This document shows, piece by piece, positions 1 through 17,263 of a DNA stretch of 21,072 bases. The stretch is from IMG/VR virus record IMGVR_UViG_3300014625_000019. One strand, 5' to 3'. Positions within the stretch are counted from its first letter, which is position 1, and the number at the start of each line of letters is the position of its first letter. The stretch is from a virus (Duplodnaviria; Heunggongvirae; Uroviricota; Caudoviricetes). Under the pieces are notes generated by a model. It searched no databases and was not told where the DNA came from. It worked only from the letters and a program-made list of their open reading frames with translations. A program made the translations under genes and the position numbers.

Positions 1-60
1 TGATAGAAACAGAAGCCACTGGAGCACCTCAAAAACACCATCATACACTAAATCAGTAAG

Positions 61-471
61 TTGGCAGCATTACCTGGAAGCACTCCTTATTATCCTAAAA
101 CATACAGTTCACCAAGCTCATCAGGCTCATCCAATTCAGGTACAAATTCGCCATCGTCTTCTTCATCTGTTCGTTCGCTTCGCTCAAATGACACCGATGC
201 CTCTACGACCACAAACTCTGCTGGAATGAATGGAACTACTCGTGCAAGTAGTGGGCTGGCTTCTGATACTGAAAAGCGTAAGCGTTTGATCATGCGAGTG
301 CAGTTCGCATTACTGGATAAAGGGTTTTATAACGGCAATATAGACGGAAGTATGGGGCCTGCGACACGAACTGCTATCAAAAATTACAGAGTTGCATATG
401 GGCTTCCTACTCCAGTAAGAGAAACATTAGATGCTCAGTTATTGAACTCTTTGAATATACTTGCTCGTTAA
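61..471 (+). CDS. Small peptidoglycan-binding-domain protein (Ser-rich low-complexity linker, C-terminal PG_binding_1-like motif); start uncertain
   Basis: ORF bounded by in-frame stops at 1-6 and 49-51. C-terminal LLDKGFYNGNIDGSMGPATRTAIKNYRVAYGLPT fits the PG_binding_1 pattern (L-G-Y-x-G-x-x-D-G-x-x-G-x-x-T-x-x-A-I-x-x-F-Q-x-x-x-G-L). No ATG at the 5' end: candidate starts are TTG at 61 or ATG at 226. No obvious signal peptide. Confidence 0.45.
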   Translation: MAALPGSTPYYPKTYSSPSSSGSSNSGTNSPSSSSSVRSLRSNDTDASTTTNSAGMNGTTRASSGLASDTEKRKRLIMRVQFALLDKGFYNGNIDGSMGPATRTAIKNYRVAYGLPTPVRETLDAQLLNSLNILAR

Positions 472-489
472 AATATTAGGTAAAATAGA

Positions 490-2097
490 ATGAAGATAAA
501 ACTCTCTATTTATAAAACAAAAAGGTTTAGCGATGATATTGATCAGATTTTGAATTTGGAAAGGGTCAAAAGACCTGTTGAATTCGAGATGGAGGATGCA
601 CGAGCATATCTATATGTAAAGGAGTACATGGACCCAAAACCTCCTGAATGGACCACCTTTTTTATGGGCCAAAATCCTGGCATAGAACCTGATTTCTTCG
701 GTATGAATAGTAGCACAGGAGCAGTATTAGTTATTGAAGCTAACAATTCCAGATATCTTATTCCCTTTGGAACCGGTCATCACTTAATCAATGATGGCAG
801 CATTGTCAAAGGATTTGGGCTTAAAACAACTCTTAATAGTATAGAACATAAAAAAATTCGCAGTTTAGATAAAGGCAGTCACAACGAAACGAACCTGTTA
901 ACTCGCAGTCAGAGCAGTAAAGAAGTCGATATATACAACCTAAAAATAGATTCTGAGATGGATATTCTTACAACTCTCACAGGCACTTCGACAGAAGATA
1001 TTTTAGGAAGTAAAATTACTGGCAAAGATGCTTTTGTGATCATGCCGGATATTGAATTGAAGGCTATTCCAGCACTGTTGACCAAAATAGACTCTATTTA
1101 CTTATTACCTCTTCCTGAAGAATTCGAATGGGTTAACAATATCAAGGAGGCTGATGAACAAGAAGTTGAGATATTGGATTCGCTTTTGATTGATCGGATA
1201 AAGGAAAAAGACTTCAATGATTTATGGCTTGGAGAGCCAGAAATAGTAGACTGGGAAAATCAAATAGGCTATTGCTTTGATAAGAGACAAAGATTCATTC
1301 ATGAAACCTTATCAATATACCATGTTTGTGATTATTTTGATGGTAAGAAAACTGAAGTAACTGTTGATGAACTCAAAAAAAATTACCTGCATGTTTTGAA
1401 TGCCGATTTTGAATCAATAAAAAAATGGTCTTTATATAGGTGCCTCTATGCCGAGATAAAAGAAGGTGATCAGAACTATATTCTTCGAGACTCTATATGG
1501 TATGTTGCAGATAGGAATTTTGTATCGACTATTGATGATGAAATGAAAAAAATAATTCATTATGAGGAGTCGGACAAATTCCCTGTATATTCATATAAAC
1601 GAGAGGAGGATTATAATAAAAAACTTTGCCAAGATGATAATTCCTTTACACACATGGATCAGAAATTCATTCATCATGGTGGTGGTAAAAGTAAGATTGA
1701 ATTTTGTGATCTTATCAGAGGTCAATCAGATTTTATCCATGTAAAATATTATACTGGTTCGCAAAGTATGAGCCATCTTTTTTCACAAGGATTTATAGGT
1801 TCTGAACTTTTTATAAGTGACTCTGAATTTCGAGGCAAACTTAATGAGAAACTGCCTGCTCATATAAAATTAGCCGATCATATAAATAGACCAGATGCTA
1901 AAAAATATAAACTAGTTTTCGCCATAGCTTCTAATAAAAATCTTCCCGAAGATTTACCTTTGTTTTCTAAAGTAAACTTAAAAAATTTCCACAAGAGTAT
2001 TACCAATTTTGGGTATGAGGTCAGGATCTGCAAAATTGCTGTGGACCCAGATATTTATAAAAAGAAGCTATGTAAACCACAAAAGAACAAGCTTTAA
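490..2097 (+). CDS. Hypothetical protein, 535 aa, lysine-rich, AT-rich codon usage, no recognisable catalytic motif
   Basis: Long uninterrupted ORF with an ATG start and a weak SD (AGGT) about 9 nt upstream. No convincing Walker A, PLD HKD or canonical PD-(D/E)xK signature found by eye (PDIELK at the VIMPDIELK segment is too compact to be canonical). No transmembrane segments. Confidence 0.7.
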   Translation: MKIKLSIYKTKRFSDDIDQILNLERVKRPVEFEMEDARAYLYVKEYMDPKPPEWTTFFMGQNPGIEPDFFGMNSSTGAVLVIEANNSRYLIPFGTGHHLINDGSIVKGFGLKTTLNSIEHKKIRSLDKGSHNETNLLTRSQSSKEVDIYNLKIDSEMDILTTLTGTSTEDILGSKITGKDAFVIMPDIELKAIPALLTKIDSIYLLPLPEEFEWVNNIKEADEQEVEILDSLLIDRIKEKDFNDLWLGEPEIVDWENQIGYCFDKRQRFIHETLSIYHVCDYFDGKKTEVTVDELKKNYLHVLNADFESIKKWSLYRCLYAEIKEGDQNYILRDSIWYVADRNFVSTIDDEMKKIIHYEESDKFPVYSYKREEDYNKKLCQDDNSFTHMDQKFIHHGGGKSKIEFCDLIRGQSDFIHVKYYTGSQSMSHLFSQGFIGSELFISDSEFRGKLNEKLPAHIKLADHINRPDAKKYKLVFAIASNKNLPEDLPLFSKVNLKNFHKSITNFGYEVRICKIAVDPDIYKKKLCKPQKNKL

Positions 2098-2253
2098 ATA
2101 AATTTTTCAATGCCAGAGACGTTTGCCAGTTCATGCAGAAAATCGCTTTTGTAAGTTACAGCCCATGTATCTTGGTTTAGAACAAAGTGATGTCAAAAAA
2201 GGTTTATGTCTTGGTGGATAAGGGGCTGGGAGATTTAACCCCTTATAGAGTTG

Positions 2254-2466
2254 TTATGCCGCAATAGCTTTAAATTTTTGAGCAATGACATAATCACTCC
2301 ACCACTGCATGAGAATCACTCGTTCTGCCAGATATTCCGGGCGATTGTAAGCTGCAATTATTTCATCTTTCTTCGAGTGGGCAAGGGCCGCTTCTAAGAC
2401 ACCAGTCCTGAACTTACCAGATTCGTCTGTCGCCGTTCTCACAATAGATCTCATTCTGTTAACCAT
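2254..2466 (-). pseudogene. 3'-terminal remnant of a P4-type tyrosine integrase (about 70 codons, N-terminal about 340 codons missing)
   Basis: Translation MRSIVRTATDESGKFRTGVLEAALAHSKKDEIIAAYNRPEYLAERVILMQWWSDYVIAQKFKAIAA aligns almost residue-for-residue with the C-terminus of the intact integrase at 6212-7441. Nucleotide similarity decays upstream of about 2470. Confidence 0.6.
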
Positions 2467-2593
2467 AAGTTCACCTCCTTAAACCGTTCGAATGATTACG
2501 GCTTATACTGCCTACTTATGCTAATATCTAAGAGAAGCCATTATGGTTGTGTAAGTATACTTCATGGTTTATTTCGGATATATAAAACCATAC

Positions 2594-3490
2594 CTATGAC
2601 TGGCTGTTTTCAGCAAGAGTCTTATCATCTAAAGAATTTATTTTCGAAATTCTTTTTAACTCATTAAGATAATCAACCTCGTTTTCCAAGAACCAATGAA
2701 GAACTTTAGAGTTACCAAGTAATTTAATAATATATGACTGGATTATAACGAATTTCAACATATCTGAACCATACTCGGTTTGAAGCTTTTTTGTTTCTTC
2801 CGAAGTTGTTGCCATTTCCTGTTCCAGACGAAGTATGGTTTTTTTTATGTCCTTTTTATAGGGAGTGTTTTTCCCTTTATTTATTATCATCGATGCCGGT
2901 GTTGCATCCAAGATGCTCATTGCAAATTTTTTACTATAATTATCAAAATTAATCATTGTACCGACTGCTTCAATTTGACGAATTGGTTTCATTTTCCTCA
3001 AAACATCAAATGTAGCCTTAGGTATTGGTTTATCAGAAAGTTTCGCAATCACACTTGGATCTATACCGTTCATCACATTAGCTTTATCTTTTATAGCATC
3101 AATAGATATGCCCAAAGCAGCACTAAGTTTTTCAATTGAAACTTTTGCTAAGGACTTGATTATCATTCTATGTTCTTCAACTACATTTATATGATTGACT
3201 TGTTTGTTAGGAGTGAACGCATCATCTATGCTCGAAAGTATACATGGAGCTTTTTCTATGCCTAAATCTTTTAAAGCCTCAACCCTCAAATGGCCATCGA
3301 GTATCTTAATGGCATCTTTATCTTTGTCATAGAACACTATTATTGGTTCAATAATACCTAAGCTTTCAATTGAGGTAACTATTTGATGGTATTTATGACT
3401 TAGCTTTACATTTTCTAACAATTCCTTAGAGGGAATTAACTTGTTAGTTTCTAAATAAATAAAATTGTCGCCAAAACGTATCTGAATCAT
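2594..3490 (-). CDS. ParB/Srx-fold DNA-binding protein (ParB-like N-terminal domain with LDGHLRVEA box, predicted HTH), 298 aa
   Basis: Start codon overlaps the stop of the upstream gene (ATGA at 3487-3490). Motif IIVFYDKDKDAIKILDGHLRVEALKDLG resembles the ParB/Srx G-x-x-R-x-x-A box. Helix-turn-helix-like segment SIEKLSAALGISIDAIKDK. Confidence 0.6.
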   Translation of the reverse strand: MIQIRFGDNFIYLETNKLIPSKELLENVKLSHKYHQIVTSIESLGIIEPIIVFYDKDKDAIKILDGHLRVEALKDLGIEKAPCILSSIDDAFTPNKQVNHINVVEEHRMIIKSLAKVSIEKLSAALGISIDAIKDKANVMNGIDPSVIAKLSDKPIPKATFDVLRKMKPIRQIEAVGTMINFDNYSKKFAMSILDATPASMIINKGKNTPYKKDIKKTILRLEQEMATTSEETKKLQTEYGSDMLKFVIIQSYIIKLLGNSKVLHWFLENEVDYLNELKRISKINSLDDKTLAENSQS

Positions 3491-4383
3491 TTTGATGCCT
3501 CTTTGTTTATTGGATTGAGGATCTGAGATGGCTGTTCTGATAGATTCTCTTGTTCAAGTATATTTTGAAAGCTTTTATTCATCATTATGATGTTAAAAAT
3601 CTCATTTACTATCAGCAAATTAGTTTTAATAAATTTAGAGTTGTTATAAACAGATTTATGTTCAGCGATACTATTTTCATAAAGCTCAATTAACTCCTCA
3701 GCAGTCATTCTTTTTGATGGTTTGTGATAATAAAACCCGGCTGCTTTTGCACCTTTATTCCCAATTGTTCGCTGATTTAGAATGTGTTTTATCTTTATAA
3801 TGTCTCGGCTTTTTATTAATTTTTTATCATATGCTTCGGTAAGAATATCTTGTGCTTCTTCAGTTTCACATCTTGCAAATTGCACTGCGAGATACAGAGG
3901 CAAATTCCCCCGTTCGACTGCAGAGAGAAGTTTATGCTCTCCCTTATCAAGAAGCATATTTATACTGCTCACCCAGTTCGATGAATACCCAGTAATCTCA
4001 CTTATTTCGGAGTCTGAAAGTCCTCTGTTTTTCATATCTTTTATTATCTGTAATAACTCATTGGAACGTGGTCTCCTCCTTGCAATGTTTTCAACCAAAC
4101 TCATAACATAAGCATCTTCTTCTGATACATCTCTTATAATTGCAGGAATAATGGTCTCACCTAATGCAACGAGAGCCTCTATTCTCCCTTGGCCACAAAT
4201 TAAAGCATATTTGAAGTCGTCTTCATCAATCGCTCTTACGCTTATAGGCTTGCTTAATCCTCTTTTTTTTATGCTTTCCTTAATTTCTTCATGCACTACC
4301 TTATTTCTAGTGCGCGGGTTAAGAAATTTTATTTTGGCAATTTCAATTTGGATTATTGGGAATTCATTTGATTCAGGCAGCAT
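3487..4383 (-). CDS. ParB/Srx-fold DNA-binding protein (ISVRAIDEDDFKYALICGQGRIEA box, predicted HTH), 298 aa; paralogue of the downstream gene
   Basis: Start overlaps the 3' end of the recombinase gene by 11 nt. SD-like GAGGG upstream of the ATG. ParB-like box ICGQGRIEALVALG. HTH-like LSDSEISEITGYSSNWVSSI. Confidence 0.6.
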   Translation of the reverse strand: MLPESNEFPIIQIEIAKIKFLNPRTRNKVVHEEIKESIKKRGLSKPISVRAIDEDDFKYALICGQGRIEALVALGETIIPAIIRDVSEEDAYVMSLVENIARRRPRSNELLQIIKDMKNRGLSDSEISEITGYSSNWVSSINMLLDKGEHKLLSAVERGNLPLYLAVQFARCETEEAQDILTEAYDKKLIKSRDIIKIKHILNQRTIGNKGAKAAGFYYHKPSKRMTAEELIELYENSIAEHKSVYNNSKFIKTNLLIVNEIFNIIMMNKSFQNILEQENLSEQPSQILNPINKEASK

Positions 4384-5929
4384 ATAGTTCCCTCACTTTC
4401 ATTCGAGTAATAATTTGTAGAAGTTTATCCAGATTATCAAATCTATAGAGATCTAATCGAATGTTGTTTGTTTCCGTCATGCACATTTTACTATATTCGT
4501 TTTCAATCTTTGGTATGATATAAAAATCAAGTGGTGTAATATTTTGTGAATCCATTCGTATAACAATTGTTATGTCTGCTTTCTGTGAGTTATCAAACCG
4601 GACTTTCCATCTAAGTTTACCCGATTTCATATGTGTGCATTTGGTAATAAGGACGGAAATTAAAAACTCATCATTGATGTAAAGCATTGGTGCATATTTA
4701 TATTCGTCTATATAGCAGTTGCTTTTTATAATTCCCCCCTTAAAATCCTCAATTATGCCTGAGTAAAATGATCTTAGTGCTTCATTTATTTGGATATAGC
4801 TGTAATCATGTTCTGGCTTATAACCAATCAAAGTATATGCTCTTAAAAGACCACCAAATCGGGTTCTGTAAACAGAAGATGAAGGGCCTGTATCATCTTC
4901 ATCAATGATAAAGCCAGATAGTTTTCCATTAGTTTCTAATTTTTGTTTTAGCTTTTCTAAAAGCTCTTCATTAGTCAAATGTACGGATCGGAGCTGAATT
5001 ATTTCTTGAGCTTTATTATATTTTTTCTTTGAAATAATGGGTTTGTATGCCTTGTCGCATCTAACCCATTCATTTTTTGGGTTTTTTACAAGCCTACTTT
5101 TTAGTTTAGATGAGGTTTTGTTATATATGTTATTTCCAATATATTTTTCATTTGTTAAGATTTGATGTATTTTTGCACGAGTCCATAATGTTCCATTTTC
5201 TGCAGGTATATTCTGTTCGTTTAGTCTCTCAGCAATAATGAATTCTGGCATGTTATCATCTATAAAGAGATCATAGATGCTATTTACAATTTTTATCTCA
5301 TTTTTTGGTCCAGGAATTAATATTACCCTATCTGTTTGAATACTCTTTCTTTTGCGGAAGCCCAATATTTCTTTAGCTATGCCATTTTCATCTACTAAAA
5401 GACGTCTCAGCCCATAACCAGCCATTCCGCCTTGATGATAACCAAGCTTTATTAAATTTACTTGCCCTATAAATACCTTTTCTGATAAATTCCTGCTGTG
5501 ATATGCAGCACTAGATCTTTTTATGTTCAGTATAACAGAAGACTCTAAAGGGAAATCTTTAGTGGGAATAGGTTCAGAACAGTATATAAGATCTACACCG
5601 TTTCTCTCAAATAGAAAGGAATAATATGCAGCTTCATCACTATTTTGAAAACGACCAAAACGGCTCACATCATAAAATAATACAGCCTGTATATCTATTT
5701 TCTTTTGTTCTACATCACTAAGTAACTGCTGCAAAGAATGCCGGCCTATGATACTGACTCCGCTCTTACCTGCATCATCGTAGGTATAAGCGATTTCCAT
5801 ATTGTTCTTTTCAGCATAATCTTTGATATATTCGGACTGATTATGTAAAGAATATTGCTGATGGTCGGTAGACATCCTCAAGTACTGTGCGACCCTAACT
5901 TTATGATTTTTATCATTTTCTCTAGCCAT
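4373..5929 (-). CDS. Large serine recombinase (resolvase/invertase-type catalytic domain plus recombinase domain), 518 aa
   Basis: N-terminal YLRMSTDHQ motif with the catalytic serine, followed by the DDAGKSG and VSRFGR motifs of the resolvase domain. Recombinase-domain-like WTRAKIHQILTNEKYIGNNIY. SD GAGG about 8 nt upstream of the ATG. No CxxC pairs seen in the C-terminal region. Confidence 0.8.
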   Translation of the reverse strand: MARENDKNHKVRVAQYLRMSTDHQQYSLHNQSEYIKDYAEKNNMEIAYTYDDAGKSGVSIIGRHSLQQLLSDVEQKKIDIQAVLFYDVSRFGRFQNSDEAAYYSFLFERNGVDLIYCSEPIPTKDFPLESSVILNIKRSSAAYHSRNLSEKVFIGQVNLIKLGYHQGGMAGYGLRRLLVDENGIAKEILGFRKRKSIQTDRVILIPGPKNEIKIVNSIYDLFIDDNMPEFIIAERLNEQNIPAENGTLWTRAKIHQILTNEKYIGNNIYNKTSSKLKSRLVKNPKNEWVRCDKAYKPIISKKKYNKAQEIIQLRSVHLTNEELLEKLKQKLETNGKLSGFIIDEDDTGPSSSVYRTRFGGLLRAYTLIGYKPEHDYSYIQINEALRSFYSGIIEDFKGGIIKSNCYIDEYKYAPMLYINDEFLISVLITKCTHMKSGKLRWKVRFDNSQKADITIVIRMDSQNITPLDFYIIPKIENEYSKMCMTETNNIRLDLYRFDNLDKLLQIITRMKVRELYAA

Positions 5930-6211
5930 GCACGAAACCTCATGGATGATTCAATACAATGTAGAGAATAAAATTGATCAATTTTTAACCAAATTCAACT
6001 CTTTTATCATCGATTAGAGCGAATTTGGTAAATCTTCGAGGTGTATGATAATCGAGAAGAGATGTGAATTATTTAGCTGATATGATCTACAGCTTTCGTT
6101 ATGTGGCCTCAAGGTAGTCATTCGTAAATGGCTATGCTTAGTCCACATAGGTTTATAGTGTGATTATTAATTCTTTAACTAAATCAAGATAGTTAACCCA
6201 TCATGGAAGAG

Positions 6212-7441
6212 TTATGCGGCAATAATTTTGTATTTTTGAGACGAAACAAAGTCACTCCACCACTGCATGAGAATCACCCGTTCTGTGAGATACTCTGCAC
6301 GATTGTAGGCTGCAATTATTTCATCTTTCTTCGAGTGGGCAAGGGCGGCTTCTAAGACATCAGTCCTAAATTTGCCAGACTCCTCCGCAGCCGTTCTGGC
6401 GATTGATCGCATACCGTGAGCTACAAGCTCACCTCCGAAACCCATACGGATTATGGCCGCATTAGCTGTTTGTTCATGCATGTGATTGAGTGGAGCTTTG
6501 ATACTGGGGAAAACCCACTCTCTATGCCCACTGATGGCTTTCATTAAATCCAAAACTCGCAAAGCTTCTTTGCTCAGTGGAACTTTGTGAGGCTTCTTCA
6601 TTTTCATAAACTCCGCTGGGATGTTCCACATGCCAGTTTCAATATCAATATCTGACCATCTTGTGCGAACAGCCTCACCAGGACGAACCCAAGTTAGCAA
6701 TTGCCATTCAATCAGCAATCGTGTCTCCATACGGACTGATGCGTTGTTTAACACTGTAAGGAAGCGGGGGAGTTCGGTTGGGGGCAGGGCTGGCATGTTC
6801 TGTTTCTTCGGCTTACTAAATCTCTGGGCAAGATTGTCAGCCGGATTGAATTCTATGAGTTCTTCTGTTGCTGCATAGCGGAAAATTTCATTCAGGCGGG
6901 ATATGATGCGGCGAAGTGTTTCAAGGACACCTCGTTTTTCTATGGGGTCTAAATGCTGTTTAAGCATTTTAGGCCGAATCTCTTTAATGGGAGTATCACC
7001 CAATGTGGGAAAGATATTTCTCTCCAGGCTTCGCCAGATGTCTTCTGCATGGTCTTGTGAGATACCTGAGGTCTTTACCTTCTCGTCCAACCATTTCCTT
7101 GCTACGGCTTGAAGAGTGTGTTCAATAGCACTCTTTAATGCCTTCGCCTTATTATTGTTATGGACTTGGGGATCAACACCATTTGCCAGTAAGGAGAGAT
7201 TTTCATCTCGTAAGGCTCTGGCTTTTGCAAGGGTAAGGTGAGGATAGGTCCCAAGGCTCATTTTTGTTCTTTTCTTGCTTACTGGTACTGCATACCTGAA
7301 ATACCAATTTTTCTTGCCACCTTTCGCCAAAGGAGCGATTCGTAGAATCAAACCATCCCCGTCGAACAAGTTGATTTCTTTATCGGCTGGCTTGGTGCTT
7401 TTGATTTCAGTGTCAGTGAGTTTCTTAGCGATTTTTGCCAT
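6212..7441 (-). CDS. int: P4-type tyrosine integrase (site-specific recombinase, tRNA/tmRNA-targeting family), 409 aa
   Basis: N-terminal arm-binding-like segment (LFDGDGLILRIAPLAKGGKKNWYFRY). C-terminal catalytic region with the R...H-x-x-R...Y arrangement (HGMRSIARTAA, AAYNRAEY). Architecture parallels CP4-57 IntA as I recall it. Lies directly next to the ssrA 3'-end fragment. Confidence 0.85.
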   Translation of the reverse strand: MAKIAKKLTDTEIKSTKPADKEINLFDGDGLILRIAPLAKGGKKNWYFRYAVPVSKKRTKMSLGTYPHLTLAKARALRDENLSLLANGVDPQVHNNNKAKALKSAIEHTLQAVARKWLDEKVKTSGISQDHAEDIWRSLERNIFPTLGDTPIKEIRPKMLKQHLDPIEKRGVLETLRRIISRLNEIFRYAATEELIEFNPADNLAQRFSKPKKQNMPALPPTELPRFLTVLNNASVRMETRLLIEWQLLTWVRPGEAVRTRWSDIDIETGMWNIPAEFMKMKKPHKVPLSKEALRVLDLMKAISGHREWVFPSIKAPLNHMHEQTANAAIIRMGFGGELVAHGMRSIARTAAEESGKFRTDVLEAALAHSKKDEIIAAYNRAEYLTERVILMQWWSDFVSSQKYKIIAA

Positions 7442-7537: not shown

Positions 7538-7570
7538 AAAAAAGCCCGCAGAGCTTGTGCTGTGCGGGCT
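7538..7570 (-). terminator. Rho-independent terminator (GC-rich hairpin plus T-run on the minus strand) downstream of the ssrA fragment
   Basis: Minus strand reads AAGCCCGCACAGCACAAGCTCTGCGGGCTTTTTT: a 7-bp GC-rich stem (7544-7550 with 7563-7569) followed by six T. Confidence 0.5.
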
Positions 7571-7605
7571 TAGTAGACTTCATTGTACTTCAAACAACTA
7601 AAAAG

Positions 7606-7637
7606 TGGTGGAGCTGGCGGGAGTTGAACCCGTGTCC
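7606..7637 (-). other. ssrA: 3'-terminal fragment of ssrA (tmRNA): T-arm, acceptor 3' strand and CCA; putative att core / junction repeat
   Basis: Reverse complement GGACACGGGTTCAACTCCCGCCAGCTCCACCA matches my recollection of the E. coli tmRNA 3' end (GGACGCGGGTTCAACTCCCGCCAGCTCCACCA) at 31 of 32 positions. Sequence further 5' in RNA sense (window coordinates above 7637) does not continue as tmRNA, so this is a fragment, not a gene. Confidence 0.55.
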
Positions 7638-8064
7638 ATAGTTATGTAATTCATTGAATTTAAATAGCCAAATATTGTTGATTTTACAAGCGGCTCTTTT
7701 GCGGAACTTTTTCTGTCCTGTTACTGTCTTACTATTTATTTTAAAATAGTTTCATTTGGAATTAATGGTTTGTGGTTGCAGTTTCGGAGATAGATAGCAT
7801 TTTTTGCTAAAAAATATTTTTATAAAAAAATGTGTGTAAAAATGATGTTATGCACAGATTTATGCACAGAGGCTTTGTGATAAACCAGATTGTTTTGGAT
7901 AAGTTTGTTTTTTTGTGATTTGTCAACAATATTATTGACTCTTGTTACTAAAGTGAGTGTTTTCTAAGGTGGTCAGAAGTTGTCCCTTCATGTAATCTTA
8001 TTAGCCATAAAGAACAAAAAATAATTCAACATCATTACCAACTATTTGTAAGATAAGGTTTTTA

Positions 8065-8880
8065 ATGTTGCAGCCAGCAAAAAAAGCATCAGTTATTAGC
8101 GCGCGGCTAACTAAATACCTCAAAGATGGAGTGAGGATTGATGACTTTAGCTTTAGAAGGATGTTACGTGAGATTGAAGCACTTAGAGATCCTGTCTCTG
8201 AGGACTATCTTTTAGCGTTGGTCTATGGTGCACATGGCCAAGTGAATGAGGCGATAGGCTTCTTTGAGCGTTCCTTGCAGGTATGCCATAATGAGGTTGT
8301 TGCAAAGAATTTTCTTGTTTTCTTGTCAGATTACGGTACGTTGAAGAAAAGCTTTGAAACAAGCATTAAGCTTGCTGAAAGCTTCATATCCCCGTTTATT
8401 TATCTTCAAGCTTATGAAAACTCCCTCTTTATGGGGAAGATGGCGTTGGCGGAGAAGTATTTCCAGTCATACTCTAAATTGTTCGGAGATAAGGAGCCTG
8501 AAAAAATGGACAACAATTTTGATGAAGTTGTTTCCCAGGTCGAATCCTTTAAGCAACGTGCCGATCTTTCTGGTTTAGAATATGAACTTATTTTCAATAA
8601 TGTAGCCAATGTCATGGATTCTCAGAAGGTTCATCTTTCGGGAATGCGTTTTTATAATATTTCGGAAGAGAAAGTGAATGCGATTGTATTCATGACAAAG
8701 TCTTCTGATGCTGAACAAATCGCTGATATGAATATTGAGCTTGCTTTTTCAATGGCTGAGCACGATTGTTTAGTCGGTAAAGATTTTGCTGTTTGGTTTG
8801 AATGTAAAGACACACATATTGAGCAGAATGCTATCTCCGAATTAGGTCTGATTACCCGGAGGGTTGCACATGCCGGTTAA
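8065..8880 (+). CDS. Hypothetical protein, 271 aa (first gene of a two-gene moron operon)
   Basis: ATG start preceded by an AAGG SD. Long AT-rich leader upstream (7640-8064). Overlaps the downstream gene by 11 nt. No recognisable motif. Confidence 0.6.
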   Translation: MLQPAKKASVISARLTKYLKDGVRIDDFSFRRMLREIEALRDPVSEDYLLALVYGAHGQVNEAIGFFERSLQVCHNEVVAKNFLVFLSDYGTLKKSFETSIKLAESFISPFIYLQAYENSLFMGKMALAEKYFQSYSKLFGDKEPEKMDNNFDEVVSQVESFKQRADLSGLEYELIFNNVANVMDSQKVHLSGMRFYNISEEKVNAIVFMTKSSDAEQIADMNIELAFSMAEHDCLVGKDFAVWFECKDTHIEQNAISELGLITRRVAHAG

Positions 8881-9253
8881 TAGTCAAGATTTTCTCGGTT
8901 TTGCAAAAGACTGTCATCAACGTAATGACGAAATCGGCTATCGAAATGCTATAGCAAGATCCTACTATGGCGCTTACCATCATGTCTTGCCTTGTATGGT
9001 AAACGGGCCGAAAGACAGTCATCAGGGGCTAATCAATTATTTGCAGGGCGATGCTTCAAGAGGAAGTGAAGTATATGAAGCTAGATATCTAAAAGGGATT
9101 AGTTTTATCCTGAGTCAACTTAAAGCTCAGAGGATTGTTGCAGACTATCGACTTGATCAATCGGTCACTTCTAAACAGTCTGAAGTTGCGATTCTAACAA
9201 CTGAGAGGCTCTTTGCTAAGTGTACGGAAATGCTTAAATCGAGAGCCTCCTAA
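8870..9253 (+). CDS. Hypothetical small protein, 127 aa, with an R-x6-H motif (possible HEPN-like fold)
   Basis: ATG at 8870 preceded by GGAGGG (8857-8862) at 7-nt spacing; the track ORF begins at an in-frame TTG at 8864. Motif AIARSYYGAYHH matches the minimal HEPN R-x(4-6)-H signature, but it is N-proximal, so the assignment is tentative. Confidence 0.55.
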   Translation: MPVNSQDFLGFAKDCHQRNDEIGYRNAIARSYYGAYHHVLPCMVNGPKDSHQGLINYLQGDASRGSEVYEARYLKGISFILSQLKAQRIVADYRLDQSVTSKQSEVAILTTERLFAKCTEMLKSRAS

Positions 9254-9258
9254 TTGAT

Positions 9259-9283
9259 AAAGCCACTTAAGTGGCTTTTTTTG
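9259..9283 (+). terminator. Rho-independent terminator hairpin (AAAGCCAC-TTAA-GTGGCTTT plus T-run), possibly bidirectional
   Basis: Perfect 8-bp inverted repeat with a 4-nt loop followed by TTTTT on the plus strand and an A-run on the other side. The int stop codon (9267-9269) lies in the loop. Confidence 0.5.
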
Positions 9284-11622: not shown

Positions 11623-12147
11623 TTACGACTCAGTTAACTCTTTAAAGCGTTCCATAAACATCCCATAGGTATGGCCTGGCGACAGTGGAATAACTTTGAA
11701 CATCTCTGTTGCCGGGATACCTTCCAGTACGGGCCAGAAAGAGCCATCATCAAGCCCGAGATCGCGGCGTTCGGTTGCCAGCATGATGAGATCGGCATAT
11801 TTCACGGGCGTACTCATAACCGGGGGTAACCCGTATTTCTCACGGATTACGGCGTCTATTTTTTCTTCCATCCGTTTATAGTCAGGAAGAAGGCGTTTCA
11901 GTGGAGCCGGGATGTCCTGGCAATACGCTTCTGTTGCATCATGCATTAACGCTTCAAAAGCAAATTCCTGCGGTACCAGCTGGCTGCAAAGCACCGCATG
12001 TTGGGCGACGCTGTAGAAGTGTGAAAGATGGCCGGCAAAGCGACAGATATTTGAAAGGGAAACCGCGATATCGTTAATATCGATGTTGTCTTTATTTATC
12101 CTGTCATAATAAAAATGTTTCCCGGAAAAAGTTTTAATAAATGACAT
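11623..12147 (-). CDS. yfdR: HD-domain phosphohydrolase (YfdR-like 5'-deoxynucleotidase family)
   Basis: HD signature H...SVAQH...L(x)nLMHDATEAY with downstream acidic residues. ATG at 12147 with GGAG 6 nt upstream; the track ORF starts at GTG 12159. Name assigned from recollection of the CPS-53 prophage yfdR; not verified by search. Confidence 0.7.
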   Translation of the reverse strand: MSFIKTFSGKHFYYDRINKDNIDINDIAVSLSNICRFAGHLSHFYSVAQHAVLCSQLVPQEFAFEALMHDATEAYCQDIPAPLKRLLPDYKRMEEKIDAVIREKYGLPPVMSTPVKYADLIMLATERRDLGLDDGSFWPVLEGIPATEMFKVIPLSPGHTYGMFMERFKELTES

Positions 12148-12275
12148 TTTGTTCTCCACGTTATATGCGCTGCACCGCGCTGAATTTTGGTTAAAGAAAA
12201 CCCTCGCCTTCAGGCGATTATTGAGTCAATTACGTTTCCATAAATGCCCCCGCAGGGGCATTTGCAGTAATGAAA

Positions 12276-13100
12276 TCAGGCGGTGAAAGTCCCAATAAAG
12301 GTTTCTACTTTGCTGTCCTTGAATTTCTCAACAAGCAGATCACGAAATTCGTTAGCCATATCTTCCTGCACCGCTTCCAGCTGAATAATGCGCAGAACCA
12401 GTACAGGACGATCGCCAGTGATAATGCTGAGGCGTAATTTAAACGGACGTTCTTTCAGACCTTCAAACGGAACGCATTTAAACTCAAATGCCACTGGCAT
12501 AATGTCTTTGGTCTTCGCTTCGACAGACTCCATCAGGGAGCGTTTGCCGCTGAAGTCATTATCTTCAAAATCAGCAGTCTGGTTTGCTTCAATCGTGATT
12601 TTACGGACCGCCGCAGCCGCTTTTGTTGCCTGAATGGTGTCACCATTAGCATCAAAGCCCACAAGGTAGTCGGCCCAGTCTTCGATCCATTCTGCCAGTG
12701 ACTTCTGGGAGTTACGCTCGCCGTTAACAGACAACAGAGCAGAGAACGGTGCTGTCTTTTTCAGTTTGAGAGTGGCAGTGTTATCTGCGTGACCTGGCTC
12801 ATCAATAGTACCCAGGTTAAGCACACTGACGGCACGCATATTATCGGCATCGATAAAGCAGCGGGTGCCTTCATCTGCAAGATCTTTAGAATAACGGGTA
12901 AAATCATCGATGCTGGCAGTGGAAAGTGCACCACGGAAACGGAAGCGATTTAAATTAAATTTTTCCAGATCATGAATGCGGAAATTCTCAGGCAATGCCA
13001 CAGCATCGGCACCAATCTTACTGATAATTTCATTAACACCCTGAGCAGAAATAAGGGCATGGATTTGATTAATTGCGGTTGCGTCTAAGTTCTGAGACAT
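12276..13100 (-). CDS. yfdQ: YfdQ-like prophage protein (DUF2303-type), 274 aa
   Basis: Uninterrupted ORF in the same orientation within the yfdP-yfdQ-yfdR order. Size and N-terminus ([12 protein letters not shown]...) match my recollection of E. coli YfdQ; unverified. Confidence 0.65.
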
Positions 13101-13165
13101 AATAAGTCCTCACTATATAAAGATATTCAGTGATGAGATAAATAATCAGTTTATTACGAACGATA

Positions 13166-13528
13166 TTAACGACCTGCTGCGCGGAGTTTTCCGTCAGGTT
13201 CACCGGCAAGAGTCAGTAATTGTCCCTGGTCTTCCTGCAGAATAGTCAGGCGACCACCGCGATTGACATACATCGGCGTTTCGGTGGTGTCTTCTTCGGA
13301 AATTTTCCCGCGGTTAGTTGGGCGAACATATGAGAGTTTGTGTTTGATTTTCACACGGTTCTCATCAAACGGTTCGATTTCCAGGTTGAGCGAGACCTTA
13401 CCTTTGGTTTTCGTGTTCATCACACCGGAAGCGACTTCACTGAGAACTGCGCCGATTTTGGTTTCAAATACGCCGCCGTCCAGCTCCCCGATAAATGCCT
13501 GCACATCAGTACTGCGTTCGCTAGCCAT
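13166..13528 (-). CDS. yfdP: YfdP-like small prophage protein, 120 aa
   Basis: ATG at 13528 (MASERSTDVQ...) with GAGGAG SD 9 nt upstream. The longer track ORF (to 13846) extends into a GC-rich region with Arg/Cys-rich, non-protein-like translation, so the shorter start is preferred. Confidence 0.6.
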   Translation of the reverse strand: MASERSTDVQAFIGELDGGVFETKIGAVLSEVASGVMNTKTKGKVSLNLEIEPFDENRVKIKHKLSYVRPTNRGKISEEDTTETPMYVNRGGRLTILQEDQGQLLTLAGEPDGKLRAAGR

Positions 13529-13576
13529 TTTGCTGCTCCTCATCATATCGACCCTGCAAGGTCGGTTAGTTTCTCC

Positions 13577-13665
13577 ACAAAACAGAGAAGAACACCTGCG
13601 GTGACTGCCGCCCGGATGGATTGGGTTATGAGCCCGTCGTCCGGTGATGCTCTTCTCTGTTTTGT
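13577..13665. repeat. Long inverted repeat (18-bp arms, 17 of 18 complementary) enclosing a 53-nt GC-rich segment; potential large hairpin
   Basis: ACAAAACAGAGAAGAACA (13577-13594) pairs with TGCTCTTCTCTGTTTTGT (13648-13665). Lies in an apparently non-coding GC-rich segment upstream of yfdP. Confidence 0.5.
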
Positions 13666-13929
13666 AAAAAGGACGGTACCAGCCGGAAGCAAGGGTACAA
13701 GCTGGTACCGCCAGGACTACACACAGCATAAAGTTGTGGTGCCGGGTGCCTCCCGGTGCCTGGCGAAGGTTGCACACCAGGCGGGTGGGTATCCACAGAA
13801 GGTCGACTGTCAGCCTCAACCTTAACCCGCGTGCGCTGAGCCGCATTCACCACAACGCTAAGGATTCTCTCTGGTTGAAAATACTTAGCTGTTATGTGCC
13901 TGCTTTTAGCCACATCAGGCGAGGTGGAC

Positions 13930-13981
13930 CTGGTTATTCCCCAACAACAAGGATTCGGTTAATCTGGTTATCCCCAACAAC
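13930..13981 (+). repeat. Two direct repeats CTGGTTAT(T)CCCCAACAAC separated by 15 nt, immediately upstream of the 13997 start codon; possible regulator binding sites
   Basis: Copies at 13930-13948 and 13964-13981 differ by a single extra T. Confidence 0.5.
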
Positions 13982-13996
13982 GCAAAAGGAAAAGAA

Positions 13997-14431
13997 ATGT
14001 CCGGTAATATCTACACGCTGTACAAATCCCACTGTGAAAATGTTGGAAAGTATCGGGGCATTGAAATCAGTGGGGTAGTGTCATCAGTCGAAATAAGCAA
14101 AGTGGAATCAAGGGCAACATTACTTACTCTTCTGGACCTTGTCTTACATGAGCACCGGAAGAAATTCGGCACTCCCTATAATCAGTTGAATGGGAAAAAG
14201 GCTCTGGTTCACCTTATTCTGATGAAGCATCACTGGATGCCAAAACAGATTAATGAGATGAAATTTGATGAACTTCTTCTTTCAATTCAGGATGAACTCA
14301 CACTTGATAAAATAAGCGTAACCGCCCAGAAATTTTTAGATTATCGAGACTGGAGATCACAAATTCATCACTTTGATGATTTTGACGAAAATGAATGGGA
14401 TCCTAATTTGTCTGCACAATATCTAAAGTAA
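13997..14431 (+). CDS. Hypothetical protein, 144 aa
   Basis: ATG with AAGGA SD upstream. Protein-like composition. 3' end overlaps a convergent minus-strand gene by 29 nt. Confidence 0.5.
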   Translation: MSGNIYTLYKSHCENVGKYRGIEISGVVSSVEISKVESRATLLTLLDLVLHEHRKKFGTPYNQLNGKKALVHLILMKHHWMPKQINEMKFDELLLSIQDELTLDKISVTAQKFLDYRDWRSQIHHFDDFDENEWDPNLSAQYLK

Positions 14432-14609
14432 CATCCTGTGATAAAACCGTGATTTCCTGATCCAGTTTTTTTAAGGAGTCTATTGTTTCCTGTCGATAAG
14501 ACAGCACTTCACGAAGCTGGTTTATAGCTGCCAGCTTCTTTGCCATCCACTCGTAAATTTCCTCATTTGTGTATCCGGGCGCGACGATTTTGGGTTCTGT
14601 TTTGTGCAT
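14403..14609 (-). CDS. Hypothetical small protein, 68 aa, first gene downstream of the putative leftward operator region
   Basis: ATG at 14609 with strong GAGGAGG SD 6 nt upstream. Helical/coiled-coil-like composition. Confidence 0.5.
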   Translation of the reverse strand: MHKTEPKIVAPGYTNEEIYEWMAKKLAAINQLREVLSYRQETIDSLKKLDQEITVLSQDVTLDIVQTN

Positions 14610-14668
14610 TTCACACCTCCTCAAGTTATCAGTTACTTGTTGATGGGGACCAGATTGTTAAAGAGCTA

Positions 14669-14691
14669 AGCGTCCTGTAGGGCGCTTTTTT
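14669..14691 (+). terminator. Rho-independent terminator-like hairpin plus T6 on the plus strand
   Basis: AGCGTCC-TGTA-GGGCGCT stem (7 bp including one G-U) followed by TTTTTT. No annotated plus-strand gene ends nearby, so it may terminate read-through from the 13997 gene or a small RNA. Confidence 0.4.
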
Positions 14692-14771
14692 GTTGCTAAC
14701 GAATCATCCTGGACTTTATATGCCCCAGGCGGCTACTTCGTGGGCGTCCTGCCTGTTTGTTGTTTCTCTTG

Positions 14772-14798
14772 GGTACATTATGTATCTCATAGGTACAT
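14772..14798. promoter_or_regulatory. Putative leftward operator (OL-like): repeated GGTACAT half-sites including a near-palindrome
   Basis: GGTACATTATGTATC (14772-14786) and GGTACATTG (14792-14800) share the GGTACA core with the palindromes between cI and cro. Confidence 0.35.
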
Positions 14799-14804
14799 TG
14801 TCAA

Positions 14805-14831
14805 GTATAAAAAAACCTGCCGAAGCAGGTT
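14805..14831 (-). terminator. Rho-independent terminator for cI (minus-strand hairpin ACCTGC-TTCG-GCAGGT followed by T-run)
   Basis: Minus-strand reading AACCTGCTTCGGCAGGTTTTTTTAT, 14 nt downstream of the cI stop. Confidence 0.5.
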
Positions 14832-14843
14832 CATAAACATTGA

Positions 14844-15518
14844 TTAGGCTTTGATTTTGTATCTTCTTGGTTTTCCTGAGAAAATCACAGTTCCAATTAT
14901 AGAGCAATTACCGTTGATCTTAATGTAAGGCTCAGGCCAGTTTGGGTTTAACGCTTTGAGATAACGCTGTGTCCCATCTTCTATCAACCTTTTGAAGGTG
15001 GTTTCACCTGTATCGTGCATCAATGCAATAACGTCGTCACCGTGGCAGGCAGGTACTTCAGGATCGACAAAAATCATGTCTCCCGGGCGGTACTCATCAA
15101 TCATTGAATCACCTATCACCCGCAAGATATAAGTCATTTCCCCACAGGGTACAGGGCAGGGATACGTTTCTGCTGTGCTCAAATCAACCTCAGAATATCC
15201 AACTTCTTTCCATGCTCCGGCCTGTACCCATGATATGACAGGGACTAATGTGATTTGTTTATTAGTGATTGAAACATCAGGTTTTTTTGTGATGTTCGTT
15301 GTCTGGTGTTCTTGATCGAGCCATCCGACAGGCAGGTCGAAACATTTTTCGATGTGTCGTGCCATGCTGTCACCGATATTTTTAGTAGCACCATCTCCCA
15401 TAAACCTGCTGGTCTGGGTTGGCTCGCGATCAATCATAGTGGCAAAGGAAGAATTCCCGCCAACACCATCTCTCAGTTTTCTGGCGTTAGACCGCCGGAT
15501 GTCATGGATTGTTTTCAT
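14844..15518 (-). CDS. cI: CI-like phage repressor with C-terminal LexA/S24-type autopeptidase domain
   Basis: C-terminal region aligns with lambda CI motifs (VISWVQAGAWKE vs VFSHVQAGMF; GDSM vs GNSM; TTFKRLIEDGTQRYLKALNPNWP vs [23 protein letters not shown]). Divergent from the cro-like gene across an operator region. Confidence 0.85.
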   Translation of the reverse strand: MKTIHDIRRSNARKLRDGVGGNSSFATMIDREPTQTSRFMGDGATKNIGDSMARHIEKCFDLPVGWLDQEHQTTNITKKPDVSITNKQITLVPVISWVQAGAWKEVGYSEVDLSTAETYPCPVPCGEMTYILRVIGDSMIDEYRPGDMIFVDPEVPACHGDDVIALMHDTGETTFKRLIEDGTQRYLKALNPNWPEPYIKINGNCSIIGTVIFSGKPRRYKIKA

Positions 15519-15533
15519 AACGAAATTAAAACC

Positions 15534-15605
15534 CTTGTACCGTTAAGGTACAAGTATCTTGAAGGTTCATTTCAATCATGTAATATGTACACCGGAGGTA
15601 CATAT
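15534..15605. promoter_or_regulatory. OR-like operator/promoter region: two palindromes with GTAC cores between divergent cI and cro
   Basis: CTTGTACC-GTTAA-GGTACAAG (15534-15554, perfect 8-bp arms) and ATATGTAC-ACCGGAG-GTACATAT (15583-15605, perfect 8-bp arms). The second overlaps the cro SD. Confidence 0.5.
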
Positions 15606-15608
15606 TGT

Positions 15609-15809
15609 ATGAAAGCGTATTGGGACTCTTTAACCAAAGAACAGCAGGGCGAGTTGGCCGGAAAAGTTGGCTCAACACCTGGCTACTTACGGCTGGTTTT
15701 CAATGGCTATAAAAAAGCCAGTTTTGTGCTGGCTAAAAAACTTGAGCAATGCACGTCAGGTGCAATTACGAAATCTGACTTAAGACCGGATATCTATCCG
15801 AAAGATTAG
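15609..15809 (+). CDS. cro: Cro-like small HTH regulator (YdaS-like), 66 aa
   Basis: ATG at 15609 with GGAGG SD at 10-nt spacing. HTH-like QGELAGKVGSTPGYLRLVFNG and a C-terminal DLRPDIY motif reminiscent of YdaS-type Cro proteins. Divergent to cI. Confidence 0.6.
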   Translation: MKAYWDSLTKEQQGELAGKVGSTPGYLRLVFNGYKKASFVLAKKLEQCTSGAITKSDLRPDIYPKD

Positions 15810-15840
15810 CAGAACACTTTCAATTTTTAACCACAGAACG

Positions 15841-16410
15841 ATGAGGCTAATCGTGGGTAAGCATCACTGGAAAATAGAAAAACAGCCTGAGTGGTACGTG
15901 AAAGCTGTCAGAAAAACTATCGCGGCGTTGCCGGGTGGTTACGCTGAAGCGGCTGATTGGCTCGATGTAACAGAAAACGCTTTATTCAACCGCCTTCGTG
16001 CAGATGGCGATCAGATTTTCCCGCTGGGATGGGCAATGGTTTTACAGCGTGCTGGTGGCACTCACTTCATTGCTGATGCTGTGGCGCAGTCTGCAAATGG
16101 CGTCTTTGTGTCTCTTCCTGACGTCGAGGATGTGGACAACGCCGATATTAACCAGCGTCTGCTGGAAGTCATTGAACAGATCGGCAGTTATTCAAAACAG
16201 ATTCGTTCAGCAATCGAAGACGGTGTAGTGGAACCGCATGAGAAGACAGCAATTAACGACGAGCTGTATCTCTCAATTTCGAAGCTGCAGGAGCATGCAG
16301 CACTTGTCTACAAAATTTTTTGCATTTCAGAAAGTAATGACGCCCGCGAGTGTGCAGCTCCGGGCGTCGTGGCGTCGATTGCTTCTGGTTGTGGAGAAAC
16401 TAACGCATGA
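15841..16410 (+). CDS. Putative phage regulatory protein (CII/CP76-like), 189 aa; C-terminus may be altered by a deletion junction
   Basis: Position immediately downstream of cro and weak resemblance to the 186-type CII family (recollection only). Its 3' end abuts a portal fragment. Confidence 0.4.
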   Translation: MRLIVGKHHWKIEKQPEWYVKAVRKTIAALPGGYAEAADWLDVTENALFNRLRADGDQIFPLGWAMVLQRAGGTHFIADAVAQSANGVFVSLPDVEDVDNADINQRLLEVIEQIGSYSKQIRSAIEDGVVEPHEKTAINDELYLSISKLQEHAALVYKIFCISESNDARECAAPGVVASIASGCGETNA

Positions 16411-17263
16411 ACAGTTTAACAACACACTACCGAAGCTTAACAGTAGCTGGGAGCCGGTCTATCAGGTCACATTCCCGGATGGCTCCACGGATGTACTGAG
16501 CCAGGAGGATATCTGGCATGTGCGCACGCTGACGCTGGACGGACTGGTGGGGCTGAATCCCATCGCCTATGCCCGCGAGGCAATATCGCTGGCGGCAGCG
16601 ACCGAAGAGCACGGGGCCAGACTGTTCAGCAATGGCGCGGTGACGTCGGGTGTGTTGCGTACAGAGCAGACGCTGTCAGATCAGGCTTACGAGCGCCTGA
16701 AGAAAGATTTTGAGGAGCGTCACACCGGGCTTGGCAATGCTCACCGCCCGATGATCCTTGAGATGGGGCTGGACTGGAAGTCGATGGCGCTGAACGCCGA
16801 GGACAGCCAGTTCCTGGAAACCCGCAAGTTTCAACTTGAAGAAATCTGTCGTCTGTTCCGGGTACCGTTGCACATGGTGCAGAACACCGATCGCGCCACC
16901 TTCAACAATATCGAAGAACTGGGGCTCGGATTTATCAACTATTCACTGGTGCCGTATCTGACCCGCATCGAACAGCGGATCAACACCGGACTGGTACGAA
17001 AAAGTAAGCAGGGCGTTTATTACGCCAAATTTAACGCCGGGGCGTTACTGCGCGGGGATATGAAGTCCCGTTTTGAAGCCTACGCCACCGGGATTAACTG
17101 GGGAATTTACTCTCCCAATGACTGCCGCGACCTGGAAGATATGAATCCGCGTCCCGGTGGTGATGTCTATCTCACACCGATGAACATGACCACGAAACCC
17201 TCCGATGGCAGTAAAGCCGGTAAGCAGAAGGATAACGCCAATGCAGACGAAACAACGTCTTGA
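16400..17263 (+). pseudogene. HK97-family phage portal protein, 5'-truncated fragment (C-terminal about 285 codons only)
   Basis: Portal-like segment (GLGNAHRPMILEMGLDWKSMALNAEDSQFLETRKFQLEEICRLFRVPLHMV). The upstream part of the track ORF is an alternate frame of the CII-like gene, so roughly the first 120-130 residues of a normal portal are absent. Confidence 0.55.

What the first reader, a model, noticed from the sequence alone, without database searches (positions are those of the whole stretch)
7538..7637. ssrA 3'-end fragment plus terminator as an internal junction of a tandem array at the tmRNA hotspot
The 32-nt segment is a near-exact tmRNA 3' end (T-arm to CCA) followed on the same strand by a strong terminator and then the P4-type integrase. 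The tmRNA body does not continue on the other side, so this is a duplicated att copy rather than the gene. It marks the boundary between the degraded prophage on the right and the integrase island on the left, implying serial integrations at ssrA, with the intact ssrA gene expected beyond the right end of the window.
Basis: partly seen in the sequence, partly recalled or inferred. Interest (0 to 1): 0.45.

Follow-up and report, generated by a model that had tools for sequence, protein, structure and literature searches.

The report
Leftover tmRNA-gene end between two mobile elements
This is the displaced 3' end of the tmRNA gene (ssrA), left at the seam where a phage integrated next to an older integrase island; it is a real but ordinary and well-documented scar of serial integration at a known hotspot.

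Summary
On the minus strand, window 7637..7606 reads GGACACGGGTTCAACTCCCGCCAGCTCCACCA, which matches the E. coli/Salmonella ssrA 3' end at 31 of 32 bases. A 32-nt spacer follows, then a -20.4 kcal/mol hairpin with a U6 run (7571..7538), then an intact P4-type integrase (7441..6212). No tmRNA body lies upstream.

- In more than 1000 E. coli genomes, one Salmonella genome and 10 other species, the same CCA-spacer-terminator-integrase block directly follows an intact ssrA.
- The DNA to the right of 7637 is the arm of a prophage. Its integrase (9267-10439) is 93% identical to that of Citrobacter phage phiNP, whose record is bounded by the same ssrA 3' repeat.
- In E. coli W409 the same tandem layout has intact ssrA about 45 kb to the right.
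- The single mismatch (A, not G, at 7633) is phage-derived, which places the crossover 3' of it, in or after the T-loop.
- The prophage is degraded: it has two internal deletions relative to SfIV.

Two things could not be shown. No second repeat copy lies in the window, and the source genome was not found, so its own ssrA is inferred. This is the known pattern of tandem islands at ssrA (Williams 2003; Islander).

The parts
7606..7637 (-). Displaced 3' end of ssrA, running from 4 nt before the T-arm to CCA. It serves as attR of the prophage on the right and, at the same time, attL of the P4-type island on the left. It matches ssrA at 31 of 32 bases. The A at 7633 (minus strand) is the phage-arm variant of the first T-stem base.
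7572..7605 (-). Island-borne spacer between CCA and the terminator (CTTTTTAGTTGTTTGAAGTACAATGAAGTCTACT). It is identical to the spacer that follows intact ssrA in island-only genomes.
7538..7571 (-). Intrinsic terminator: a 12-bp interrupted stem plus U6, -20.4 kcal/mol. In island-only genomes it acts as the ssrA terminator; here it is separated from the ssrA body. It is identical to the 3' module of Rfam IsrM.
6212..7441 (-). P4-type (CP4-57 IntA-like) tyrosine integrase of the island, 409 aa and full length. It is 48% identical to K-12 IntA.
75..6211 (.). Island cargo and maintenance genes: truncated hxsA, a TIGR04141/DUF6119 protein, an integrase fragment, two ParB/RepB-like genes and a large serine recombinase. 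Gene order matches the ssrA island of E. coli H6.
1..74 (.). End of an insertion sequence that truncates hxsA and therefore the island. Naming it IS1 rests on my own recall of the IS1 terminus.
   Evidence: the 74 nt also match SfIV 35186-35259
7638..8064 (.). AT-rich, attP-derived arm (P arm) of the prophage. The motif GGACAGAAAAAG..CCG.AAAAGAGCCGC at 7690-7718 (-) is also present in the arm of phiNP and, less closely, in that of a third phage.
8065..9253 (+). Two cargo ORFs of unknown function (phrog_17809 and phrog_5176), lying between the att site and the phage integrase.
9267..10439 (-). Prophage tyrosine integrase (Arm-DNA-bind_2 + Phage_integrase). It is 93% identical to the integrase of Citrobacter phage phiNP.
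10400..10645 (-). Prophage excisionase.
   Evidence: phrog_2917, E = 8e-45
11628..21072 (.). Body of the degraded SfIV/SfV-like prophage. It has deletion joints at 16428-16432 (replication, Q, lysis, terminase and part of the portal gene lost) and at 17567/17568 (head to tape-measure genes lost).

Best explanation
The 32-nt segment is the displaced 3' end of the tmRNA gene at an internal junction of a two-element array at ssrA.

Step 1 (inferred from comparison): a P4-type integrase island integrated at the extreme 3' end of ssrA. It brought its own copy of the last ssrA bases, a 32-nt spacer, a terminator and its integrase. In this state the island directly follows an intact ssrA.

Step 2 (inferred from comparison): a temperate phage integrated into the rebuilt ssrA. 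It has an SfIV-like body and a phiNP-type int/xis/attP module. Its attP carries a copy of the ssrA T-arm-to-CCA segment, and the crossover fell in or 3' of the T-loop. The phage's copy now completes the functional ssrA at the far (right) end of the prophage. The previous 3' end, still joined to the island's spacer, terminator and integrase, was pushed to the distal end of the prophage, which is window 7606-7637.

The A at 7633 and everything to its right come from the phage arm. Everything from roughly CGGG leftwards is the older ssrA/island sequence.

The fragment has no RNA function of its own. It is a recombination scar that could still act as attR for the phage and as attL for the island. 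Later decay, namely two deletions in the prophage and an IS cut in the island, has probably immobilised both elements.
For: Shown directly:
- Identity to the ssrA 3' end and absence of a tmRNA body.
- The sequence from CCA to the integrase ATG is 100% identical to a Salmonella locus, and about 96% identical to E. coli H6, where it follows an intact ssrA.
- The exact integrase protein sits directly after smpB-ssrA in 6 of the 8 places shown, and after an intact ssrA without smpB in a seventh, a Salmonella locus.
- 1288 complete E. coli genomes hold at least 80% of the fragment-terminator-leader block, mostly under the annotated ssrA.
- The exact 34-nt terminator occurs in 16 species' representative genomes. 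ARAGORN finds an intact tmRNA next to it in 11. Three have only a fragment, as here. In two short contigs the ssrA 3' half runs off the contig end.

Phage side:
- The integrase is 93% identical to phiNP Int. The phiNP record begins and ends with GGTTCAACTCCCGCCAGCTCCACCA.
- An excisionase lies next to the integrase.
- The identical phage arm plus fragment is found beside P4-type integrase islands, beside a different P4-like element carrying Psu and Ogr/Delta genes, beside the ypjA flank, and beside csiD. It occurs in 44 of 5426 complete E. coli genomes.

Same tandem layout with intact ssrA 45 kb away on the same strand: E. coli W409. In that genome the intact gene has G and the displaced copy has A at the mismatch position.

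Prophage degradation.

General principle of a regenerated tDNA plus a displaced fragment, and of tandem arrays: PMC4383910.
Against: - The source genome was not recovered, so its intact ssrA and the other repeat copies were not seen.
- No second copy lies in the 21-kb window.
- The order of the two integrations cannot be read from the sequence. The P4-type integrase needs only the last 14-17 nt of ssrA, judging from K-12 psaA. The island could therefore in principle have entered the displaced fragment after the phage, giving the same sequence.
- The crossover position is inferred from one phage-specific mismatch, not measured.
Confidence: 0.9

Rival explanations
1. Same structure, opposite order. 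The phage integrated first. The P4-type island then integrated into the displaced 32-nt fragment, which still holds the last 14-17 nt that this integrase class uses, rather than into the intact gene.
For: The att repeat of the CP4-57 class covers only about 14-17 nt at the very 3' end of ssrA (K-12 psaA; H6 distal end). The fragment therefore contains that repeat segment in full. Both orders would give an identical sequence.
Against: The island-next-to-intact-ssrA state is far more common: more than 1000 E. coli genomes and 11 other species. In contrast, 44 genomes carry the phage junction. The same phage junction also sits beside several different older neighbours, as expected if the phage is the later arrival, nearest the gene. 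Integrase attB sites usually need sequence on both sides of the crossover, and here the 5' side is partly replaced by phage arm. That last point is general knowledge and was not tested.
Confidence: 0.08
2. The fragment is the remnant of an ssrA gene whose body was lost by an ordinary deletion, that is, a pseudogene rather than an att duplication.
For: Only the 3' 32 nt remain, and the region is rich in IS elements and deletions.
Against: The breakpoint coincides exactly with a phage attP arm. That arm is 100% conserved in other genomes and is partly similar to the phiNP arm, including a shared motif. It lies next to int and xis. In W409 the same junction coexists with an intact ssrA. ssrA and smpB are near-universal, so loss would be unusual (general knowledge).
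Confidence: 0.01
3. The fragment-spacer-terminator block is a small-RNA gene of the IsrM type, transcribed from the phage arm and ending at the terminator.
For: Rfam IsrM matches 7538-7615 at E = 2e-14. A weak promoter-like site lies upstream on the minus strand at 7840-7811. Salmonella IsrM lies just upstream of an integrase gene (STM2763) about 66 kb from smpB.
Against: The match scores 56 bits against a gathering score of 376. It covers only the first 20 and last 57 model positions, with 253 internal positions missing. The same partial match appears where the block follows an intact ssrA, so it reflects the shared island terminator. The number of promoter-like sites is no more than chance (2 found, 2.2 expected).
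Confidence: 0.01

Closest known systems
[quoted passage not shown]
   Same: A regenerated tDNA plus a displaced 3' fragment mark the ends of each element. [quoted passage not shown] The tmRNA gene is the most enriched integration target.
   Different: Nothing in kind. Only the internal junction is visible in this window, and both elements are decayed.
E. coli K-12 cryptic prophage CP4-57 (intA, with the ssrA duplicate 'psaA')
   Same: A P4-type integrase lies immediately downstream of ssrA, after an island-supplied terminator. A short displaced ssrA 3' repeat marks the far end.
   Different: The integrase is only 48% identical and the cargo differs: Hxs, DUF6119, ParB-like genes and a serine recombinase. 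In K-12 the island abuts the intact gene, whereas here a prophage lies between them.
Citrobacter rodentium phage phiNP (OR565852)
   Same: The integrase is 93% identical and an excisionase lies next to it. The layout is the same: att, a cargo slot, int, xis. The record is bounded by the ssrA 3' repeat.
   Different: The rest of the phage differs, since the window's prophage body is SfIV/SfV-like. The cargo gene next to att differs (an AAA ATPase in phiNP). The arm variant also differs: GGACGCTGG in phiNP against GGACACGGG here.
Salmonella IsrM sRNA (Rfam RF02763)
   Same: The last ~57 nt, including the terminator, and the first ~20 nt are shared. It lies upstream of an integrase gene downstream of the ssrA region.
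   Different: 253 internal nucleotides are missing, and the score is far below the gathering score. This locus is not a member of the family.

Membership tests
Displaced tDNA fragment (att junction) of an integrative element at ssrA | The fragment matches the 3' end of the tmRNA gene | tested here: met
   31 of 32 bases (27 contiguous) match ssrA of E. coli, Salmonella and 10 other species.
Displaced tDNA fragment (att junction) of an integrative element at ssrA | A tyrosine integrase gene lies inside the element that the fragment bounds | tested here: met
   Phage integrase at 9267-10439 with xis at 10400-10645. Island integrase at 6212-7441.
Displaced tDNA fragment (att junction) of an integrative element at ssrA | An intact tmRNA gene lies in the same orientation at the other end of the element | not testable with these tools
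   It lies outside the window and the source genome was not found. The feature is met in a relative with the same tandem layout, E. coli W409.
Displaced tDNA fragment (att junction) of an integrative element at ssrA | The element's attP carries the same tDNA segment | tested here: met
   The phiNP record, whose integrase is 93% identical, starts and ends with the 25-nt ssrA 3' repeat. The record appears to be cut at the prophage ends, so this is indirect evidence for attP.
Displaced tDNA fragment (att junction) of an integrative element at ssrA | Genomes exist in which the site lacks the element | tested here: met
   Island-only loci are H6, L023-L027, L029 and L028. The phage junction occurs without this island in L011 and L013.
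tmRNA gene (ssrA, RF00023) | A full tRNA-like domain plus an mRNA-like domain with a tag reading frame | tested here: not met
   ARAGORN finds no gene. Rfam finds nothing at gathering score and gives 21 bits against a threshold of 47 in the permissive search.
IsrM sRNA (RF02763) | A full-length match at or above the gathering score (376 bits) | tested here: not met
   56 bits, covering only the model ends, with 253 positions skipped.
P4-type integrase (PRK09692 / CP4-57 IntA-like) | A full-length match above the curated cut-off, with an Arm-DNA-bind_3 N-terminus | tested here: met
   443 bits against a cut-off of 434. Pfam finds all three domains. It is 48% identical to K-12 IntA.
Intrinsic (Rho-independent) terminator | A GC-rich hairpin followed by a U run | tested here: met
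   -20.4 kcal/mol, z = -5.4, followed by U6. Termination activity was not tested.

The most novel reading that the evidence does not exclude
The orphaned block (ssrA 3' fragment, spacer and island terminator) might be transcribed from the phage arm. It would then be a short counterpart of Salmonella IsrM. More broadly, IsrM itself might have arisen as an insertion into this island-borne 'surrogate ssrA terminator' module at an internal junction of the Salmonella ssrA array.
Probability: 0.04. Interest if true: 0.35.

Novelty: already known. Interest (0 to 1): 0.1.

Why it matters
The finding has practical value for annotation. It gives the exact boundary (7637/7638) between two mobile elements. 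It shows that the phage integrase recombines in or 3' of the ssrA T-loop, whereas the island integrase uses the last ~14-17 nt. It also explains why a strong terminator sits with no gene in front of it. It adds no new biology, because serial occupation of ssrA by P4-type islands and temperate phages is a well-described pattern in enterobacteria.

Tried and rejected
- **Finding the source genome.** I looked up ORFs that span the two prophage deletion joints. I searched complete E. coli genomes for the joints (no genome covers at least 80%). I scanned the species-representative genomes for the exact joint (0 hits). I looked up the IS-truncated hxsA product (only island-only or other contexts). 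None recovered the source, so the host's own ssrA was not seen.
- **A second repeat copy in the window.** None was found with 32-, 20- or 16-nt probes allowing up to 3 mismatches, or with any 10-mer.
- **A third copy at the distal end of the same island in E. coli H6.** There were no 16-mer matches. An 11-mer hit was on the wrong strand and at chance level. Reading the ypjA flank by eye showed only a degenerate CGCCAGCCCA.
- **Williams 2003 (PMC142792).** The paper is not held in the library, so it is cited from memory and from a reference list.
- **IsrM and tmRNA_permuted Rfam hits.** Both were rejected as memberships, since they are partial and far below the gathering score.
- **PADLOC scan of the neighbouring cargo.** It gave nothing convincing.

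Full report
**1. What is in the sequence**

On the plus strand, window 7606-7637 reads TGGTGGAGCTGGCGGGAGTTGAACCCGTGTCC. On the minus strand this is GGACACGGGTTCAACTCCCGCCAGCTCCACCA. The ssrA genes of E. coli W409, H6 and K-12, of a Salmonella genome, and of 10 other species' representative genomes all end ...TTTCGGACGCGGGTTCAACTCCCGCCAGCTCCACCA. The match is therefore 31 of 32, with 27 contiguous bases. The one difference is A instead of G at the first T-stem base (window 7633).

It is the only copy in the window even with 3 mismatches, and no shuffle produced a match. ARAGORN finds no tmRNA gene and Rfam finds none at gathering score. A permissive Rfam search gives only 21 bits, from the 3' end.

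Downstream on the same strand the features are:
- a 32-nt spacer;
- a hairpin with stem 7542-7554/7559-7571, followed by U6, folding at -20.4 kcal/mol with z = -5.4;
- about 100 nt further on, a full-length P4-type integrase at 7441..6212 (PRK09692 443 bits against a cut-off of 434).

**2. Left side: an island that normally abuts intact ssrA**

E. coli H6 carries smpB, an intact ssrA, and then the same spacer, terminator and integrase. These are followed by a serine recombinase, two ParB-like genes, an integrase fragment, a TIGR04141/DUF6119 gene and hxsA-C. That is the gene order of window 1-7441.

The alignment is continuous from the T-arm leftwards and breaks exactly at window 7637/7638. 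The exact 409-aa integrase protein is on record in 493 blocks of the collection. In 6 of the 8 places shown it directly follows smpB-ssrA. A seventh place is a Salmonella locus with an intact ssrA (tag ANDETYALAA). Its sequence from CCA to the integrase ATG is 100% identical to the window. An eighth place has a P2-like prophage between, which is another tandem array.

In complete E. coli genomes, 1288 hold at least 80% of the 198-nt fragment-terminator-leader block, mostly under the annotated ssrA. The exact 34-nt terminator occurs in 16 species' representative genomes, from Klebsiella, Citrobacter and Kluyvera to Xenorhabdus and Photorhabdus:
- ARAGORN finds an intact tmRNA next to it in 11.
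- Two are short contigs in which the ssrA 3' half runs off the contig end.
- Three have only a fragment, as in the window: Superficieibacter, Photorhabdus heterorhabditis and S. enterica subsp. diarizonae.

**3. Right side: the arm of an ssrA-targeting phage**

Window 7638-8064 is AT-rich non-coding DNA. It is followed by two ORFs of unknown function, a tyrosine integrase (9267-10439, minus strand) and an excisionase (10400-10645).

The integrase is 93% identical to that of Citrobacter phage phiNP. The phiNP record begins and ends with GGTTCAACTCCCGCCAGCTCCACCA and has the same layout: att, a cargo slot, int, xis.

The exact integrase protein is widespread. In complete E. coli genomes the identical phage arm plus fragment (...AACTATGGACACGGG...CCACCA) abuts different neighbours:
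- P4-type integrase islands;
- a different P4-like element carrying Psu and Ogr/Delta genes and a HamA-helicase pair;
- the ypjA flank;
- csiD.

44 of 5426 genomes carry the junction, and 21 carry it together with this class of island integrase. The fragment is therefore the distal end of the phage whatever lies beyond it.

In E. coli W409 the same tandem layout has intact ssrA on the same strand about 45 kb to the right, at the far end of the prophage. In that genome the intact gene has G and the displaced copy has A at the mismatch position. The A is thus phage-arm sequence and the crossover lies 3' of it. Other phage arms carry different variants at adjacent positions: GGACGCTGG in phiNP and GGACTCGGG in E. 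coli F8.

**4. State of the two elements**

Against SfIV, the window aligns as follows:
- 11628-16432 matches SfIV 25323-30120.
- 16428-17567 matches SfIV 2892-4031.
- 17568-21072 matches SfIV 12398-15902.

In prophage order these are two simple deletions. The first removes replication, Q, lysis, terminase and part of the portal gene. The second removes the head to tape-measure genes. 'Degraded prophage' is correct.

The island is cut at window position 74 by the end of an insertion sequence, which I recognise as IS1. Both integrases and the excisionase are intact.

**5. Mechanism**

Integration at a tDNA splits the gene. The element's attP copy regenerates the gene, and the displaced piece marks the far end of the element. 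Tandem arrays arise when each member has its own fragment and integrase (PMC4383910).

Applied here, the island most likely came first. It used the last ~14-17 nt of ssrA. The evidence for that length is that K-12's CP4-57 is bounded by the 14-nt 'psaA' ssrA duplicate, and H6's island ends at a degenerate CGCCAGCCCA. The phage then entered the rebuilt gene at the T-loop region. This pushed the old 3' end, with the island's terminator and integrase attached, to the distal side.

The reverse order would give the same sequence and cannot be excluded. It is less parsimonious given the population frequencies.

**6. Comparison with what is known**

This is the textbook pattern described as 'traffic at the tmRNA gene' and catalogued by Islander. 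The nearest named relatives are CP4-57 (integrase 48% identical) and phage phiNP.

The Rfam IsrM hit (56 bits against a gathering score of 376, model ends only, 253 positions skipped) recurs where the block follows an intact ssrA. It reflects the shared island terminator and does not indicate an sRNA gene.

**7. Verdict**

Three points remain open: the source genome's own ssrA, any further repeat copies, and the order of the two integrations.

Noticed in passing
window 7538-7615 (-); also L028 9827-9904: Rfam IsrM (a Salmonella island sRNA) matches only at its first ~20 and last ~57 positions. The IsrM 3' module is therefore the terminator that P4-type islands place behind ssrA. In LT2, isrM lies just upstream of the integrase gene STM2763, about 66 kb from smpB (PMC2330248). 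That position suggests it sits at an internal junction of the Salmonella ssrA array.
   Followed up: partly
L032-L047: The 34-nt island terminator is 100% conserved in 16 species' representative genomes, including Xenorhabdus and Photorhabdus. Two of the 16 are MAG contigs labelled Clostridiaceae (L034) and Sphingobacterium (L046). Both carry an enterobacterial ssrA 3' half, so they are probably mis-binned or contaminated.
   Followed up: no
L031 23473-23540 (K-12), L007 24760-24890 (H6), L003 32880-33035 (W409), L009 1-125 (phiNP): The sequence after K-12's psaA and after the H6 island's distal end (ATCATGATTGGACGGTGTAAGGACAACACC...) is the same as the ssrA-proximal arm of the phiNP-type phages. 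The 'native' flank next to ypjA therefore looks like the remnant of an older phage of this family.
   Followed up: partly
window 1-74 and 61-471: The window opens in the terminal ~74 nt of an insertion sequence, which I recognise as IS1. It truncates hxsA of a His-Xaa-Ser (HxsABCD) radical-SAM cluster. Draft assemblies with contigs that break at the same point suggest this insertion is shared by several strains.
   Followed up: partly
window 490-5929: The island cargo is a TIGR04141/DUF6119 'sporadically distributed' protein, two tandem ParB/RepB-like genes and a 518-aa large serine recombinase, alongside the tyrosine integrase. The roles of the second recombinase and of the ParB pair in this island are unexplained. 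PADLOC gave no defence-system match.
   Followed up: no
window 7690-7718 (-) and 7848-7870: The phage arm holds the motif GGACAGAAAAAG..CCG.AAAAGAGCCGC, also present in the phiNP arm and, less closely, in the E. coli F8 phage arm. It also holds a perfect tandem 11-mer (TTATGCACAGA, twice). Both are candidate arm-type or accessory-protein binding sites.
   Followed up: no
window 8065-9253; L008 1087-2874; L004 11979-13849; L048 27911-31592: The slot between the att site and the phage integrase holds different cargo in different relatives: two unknown ORFs here, an AAA ATPase in phiNP, a STAS-like set in F8, and a ParA-containing set in 24AR0142. It is a variable cargo slot.
   Followed up: no
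window 16428-16432 and 17567/17568: There are two clean internal deletion joints in the SfIV-like prophage. No complete E. coli genome in the collection shares them.
   Followed up: yes
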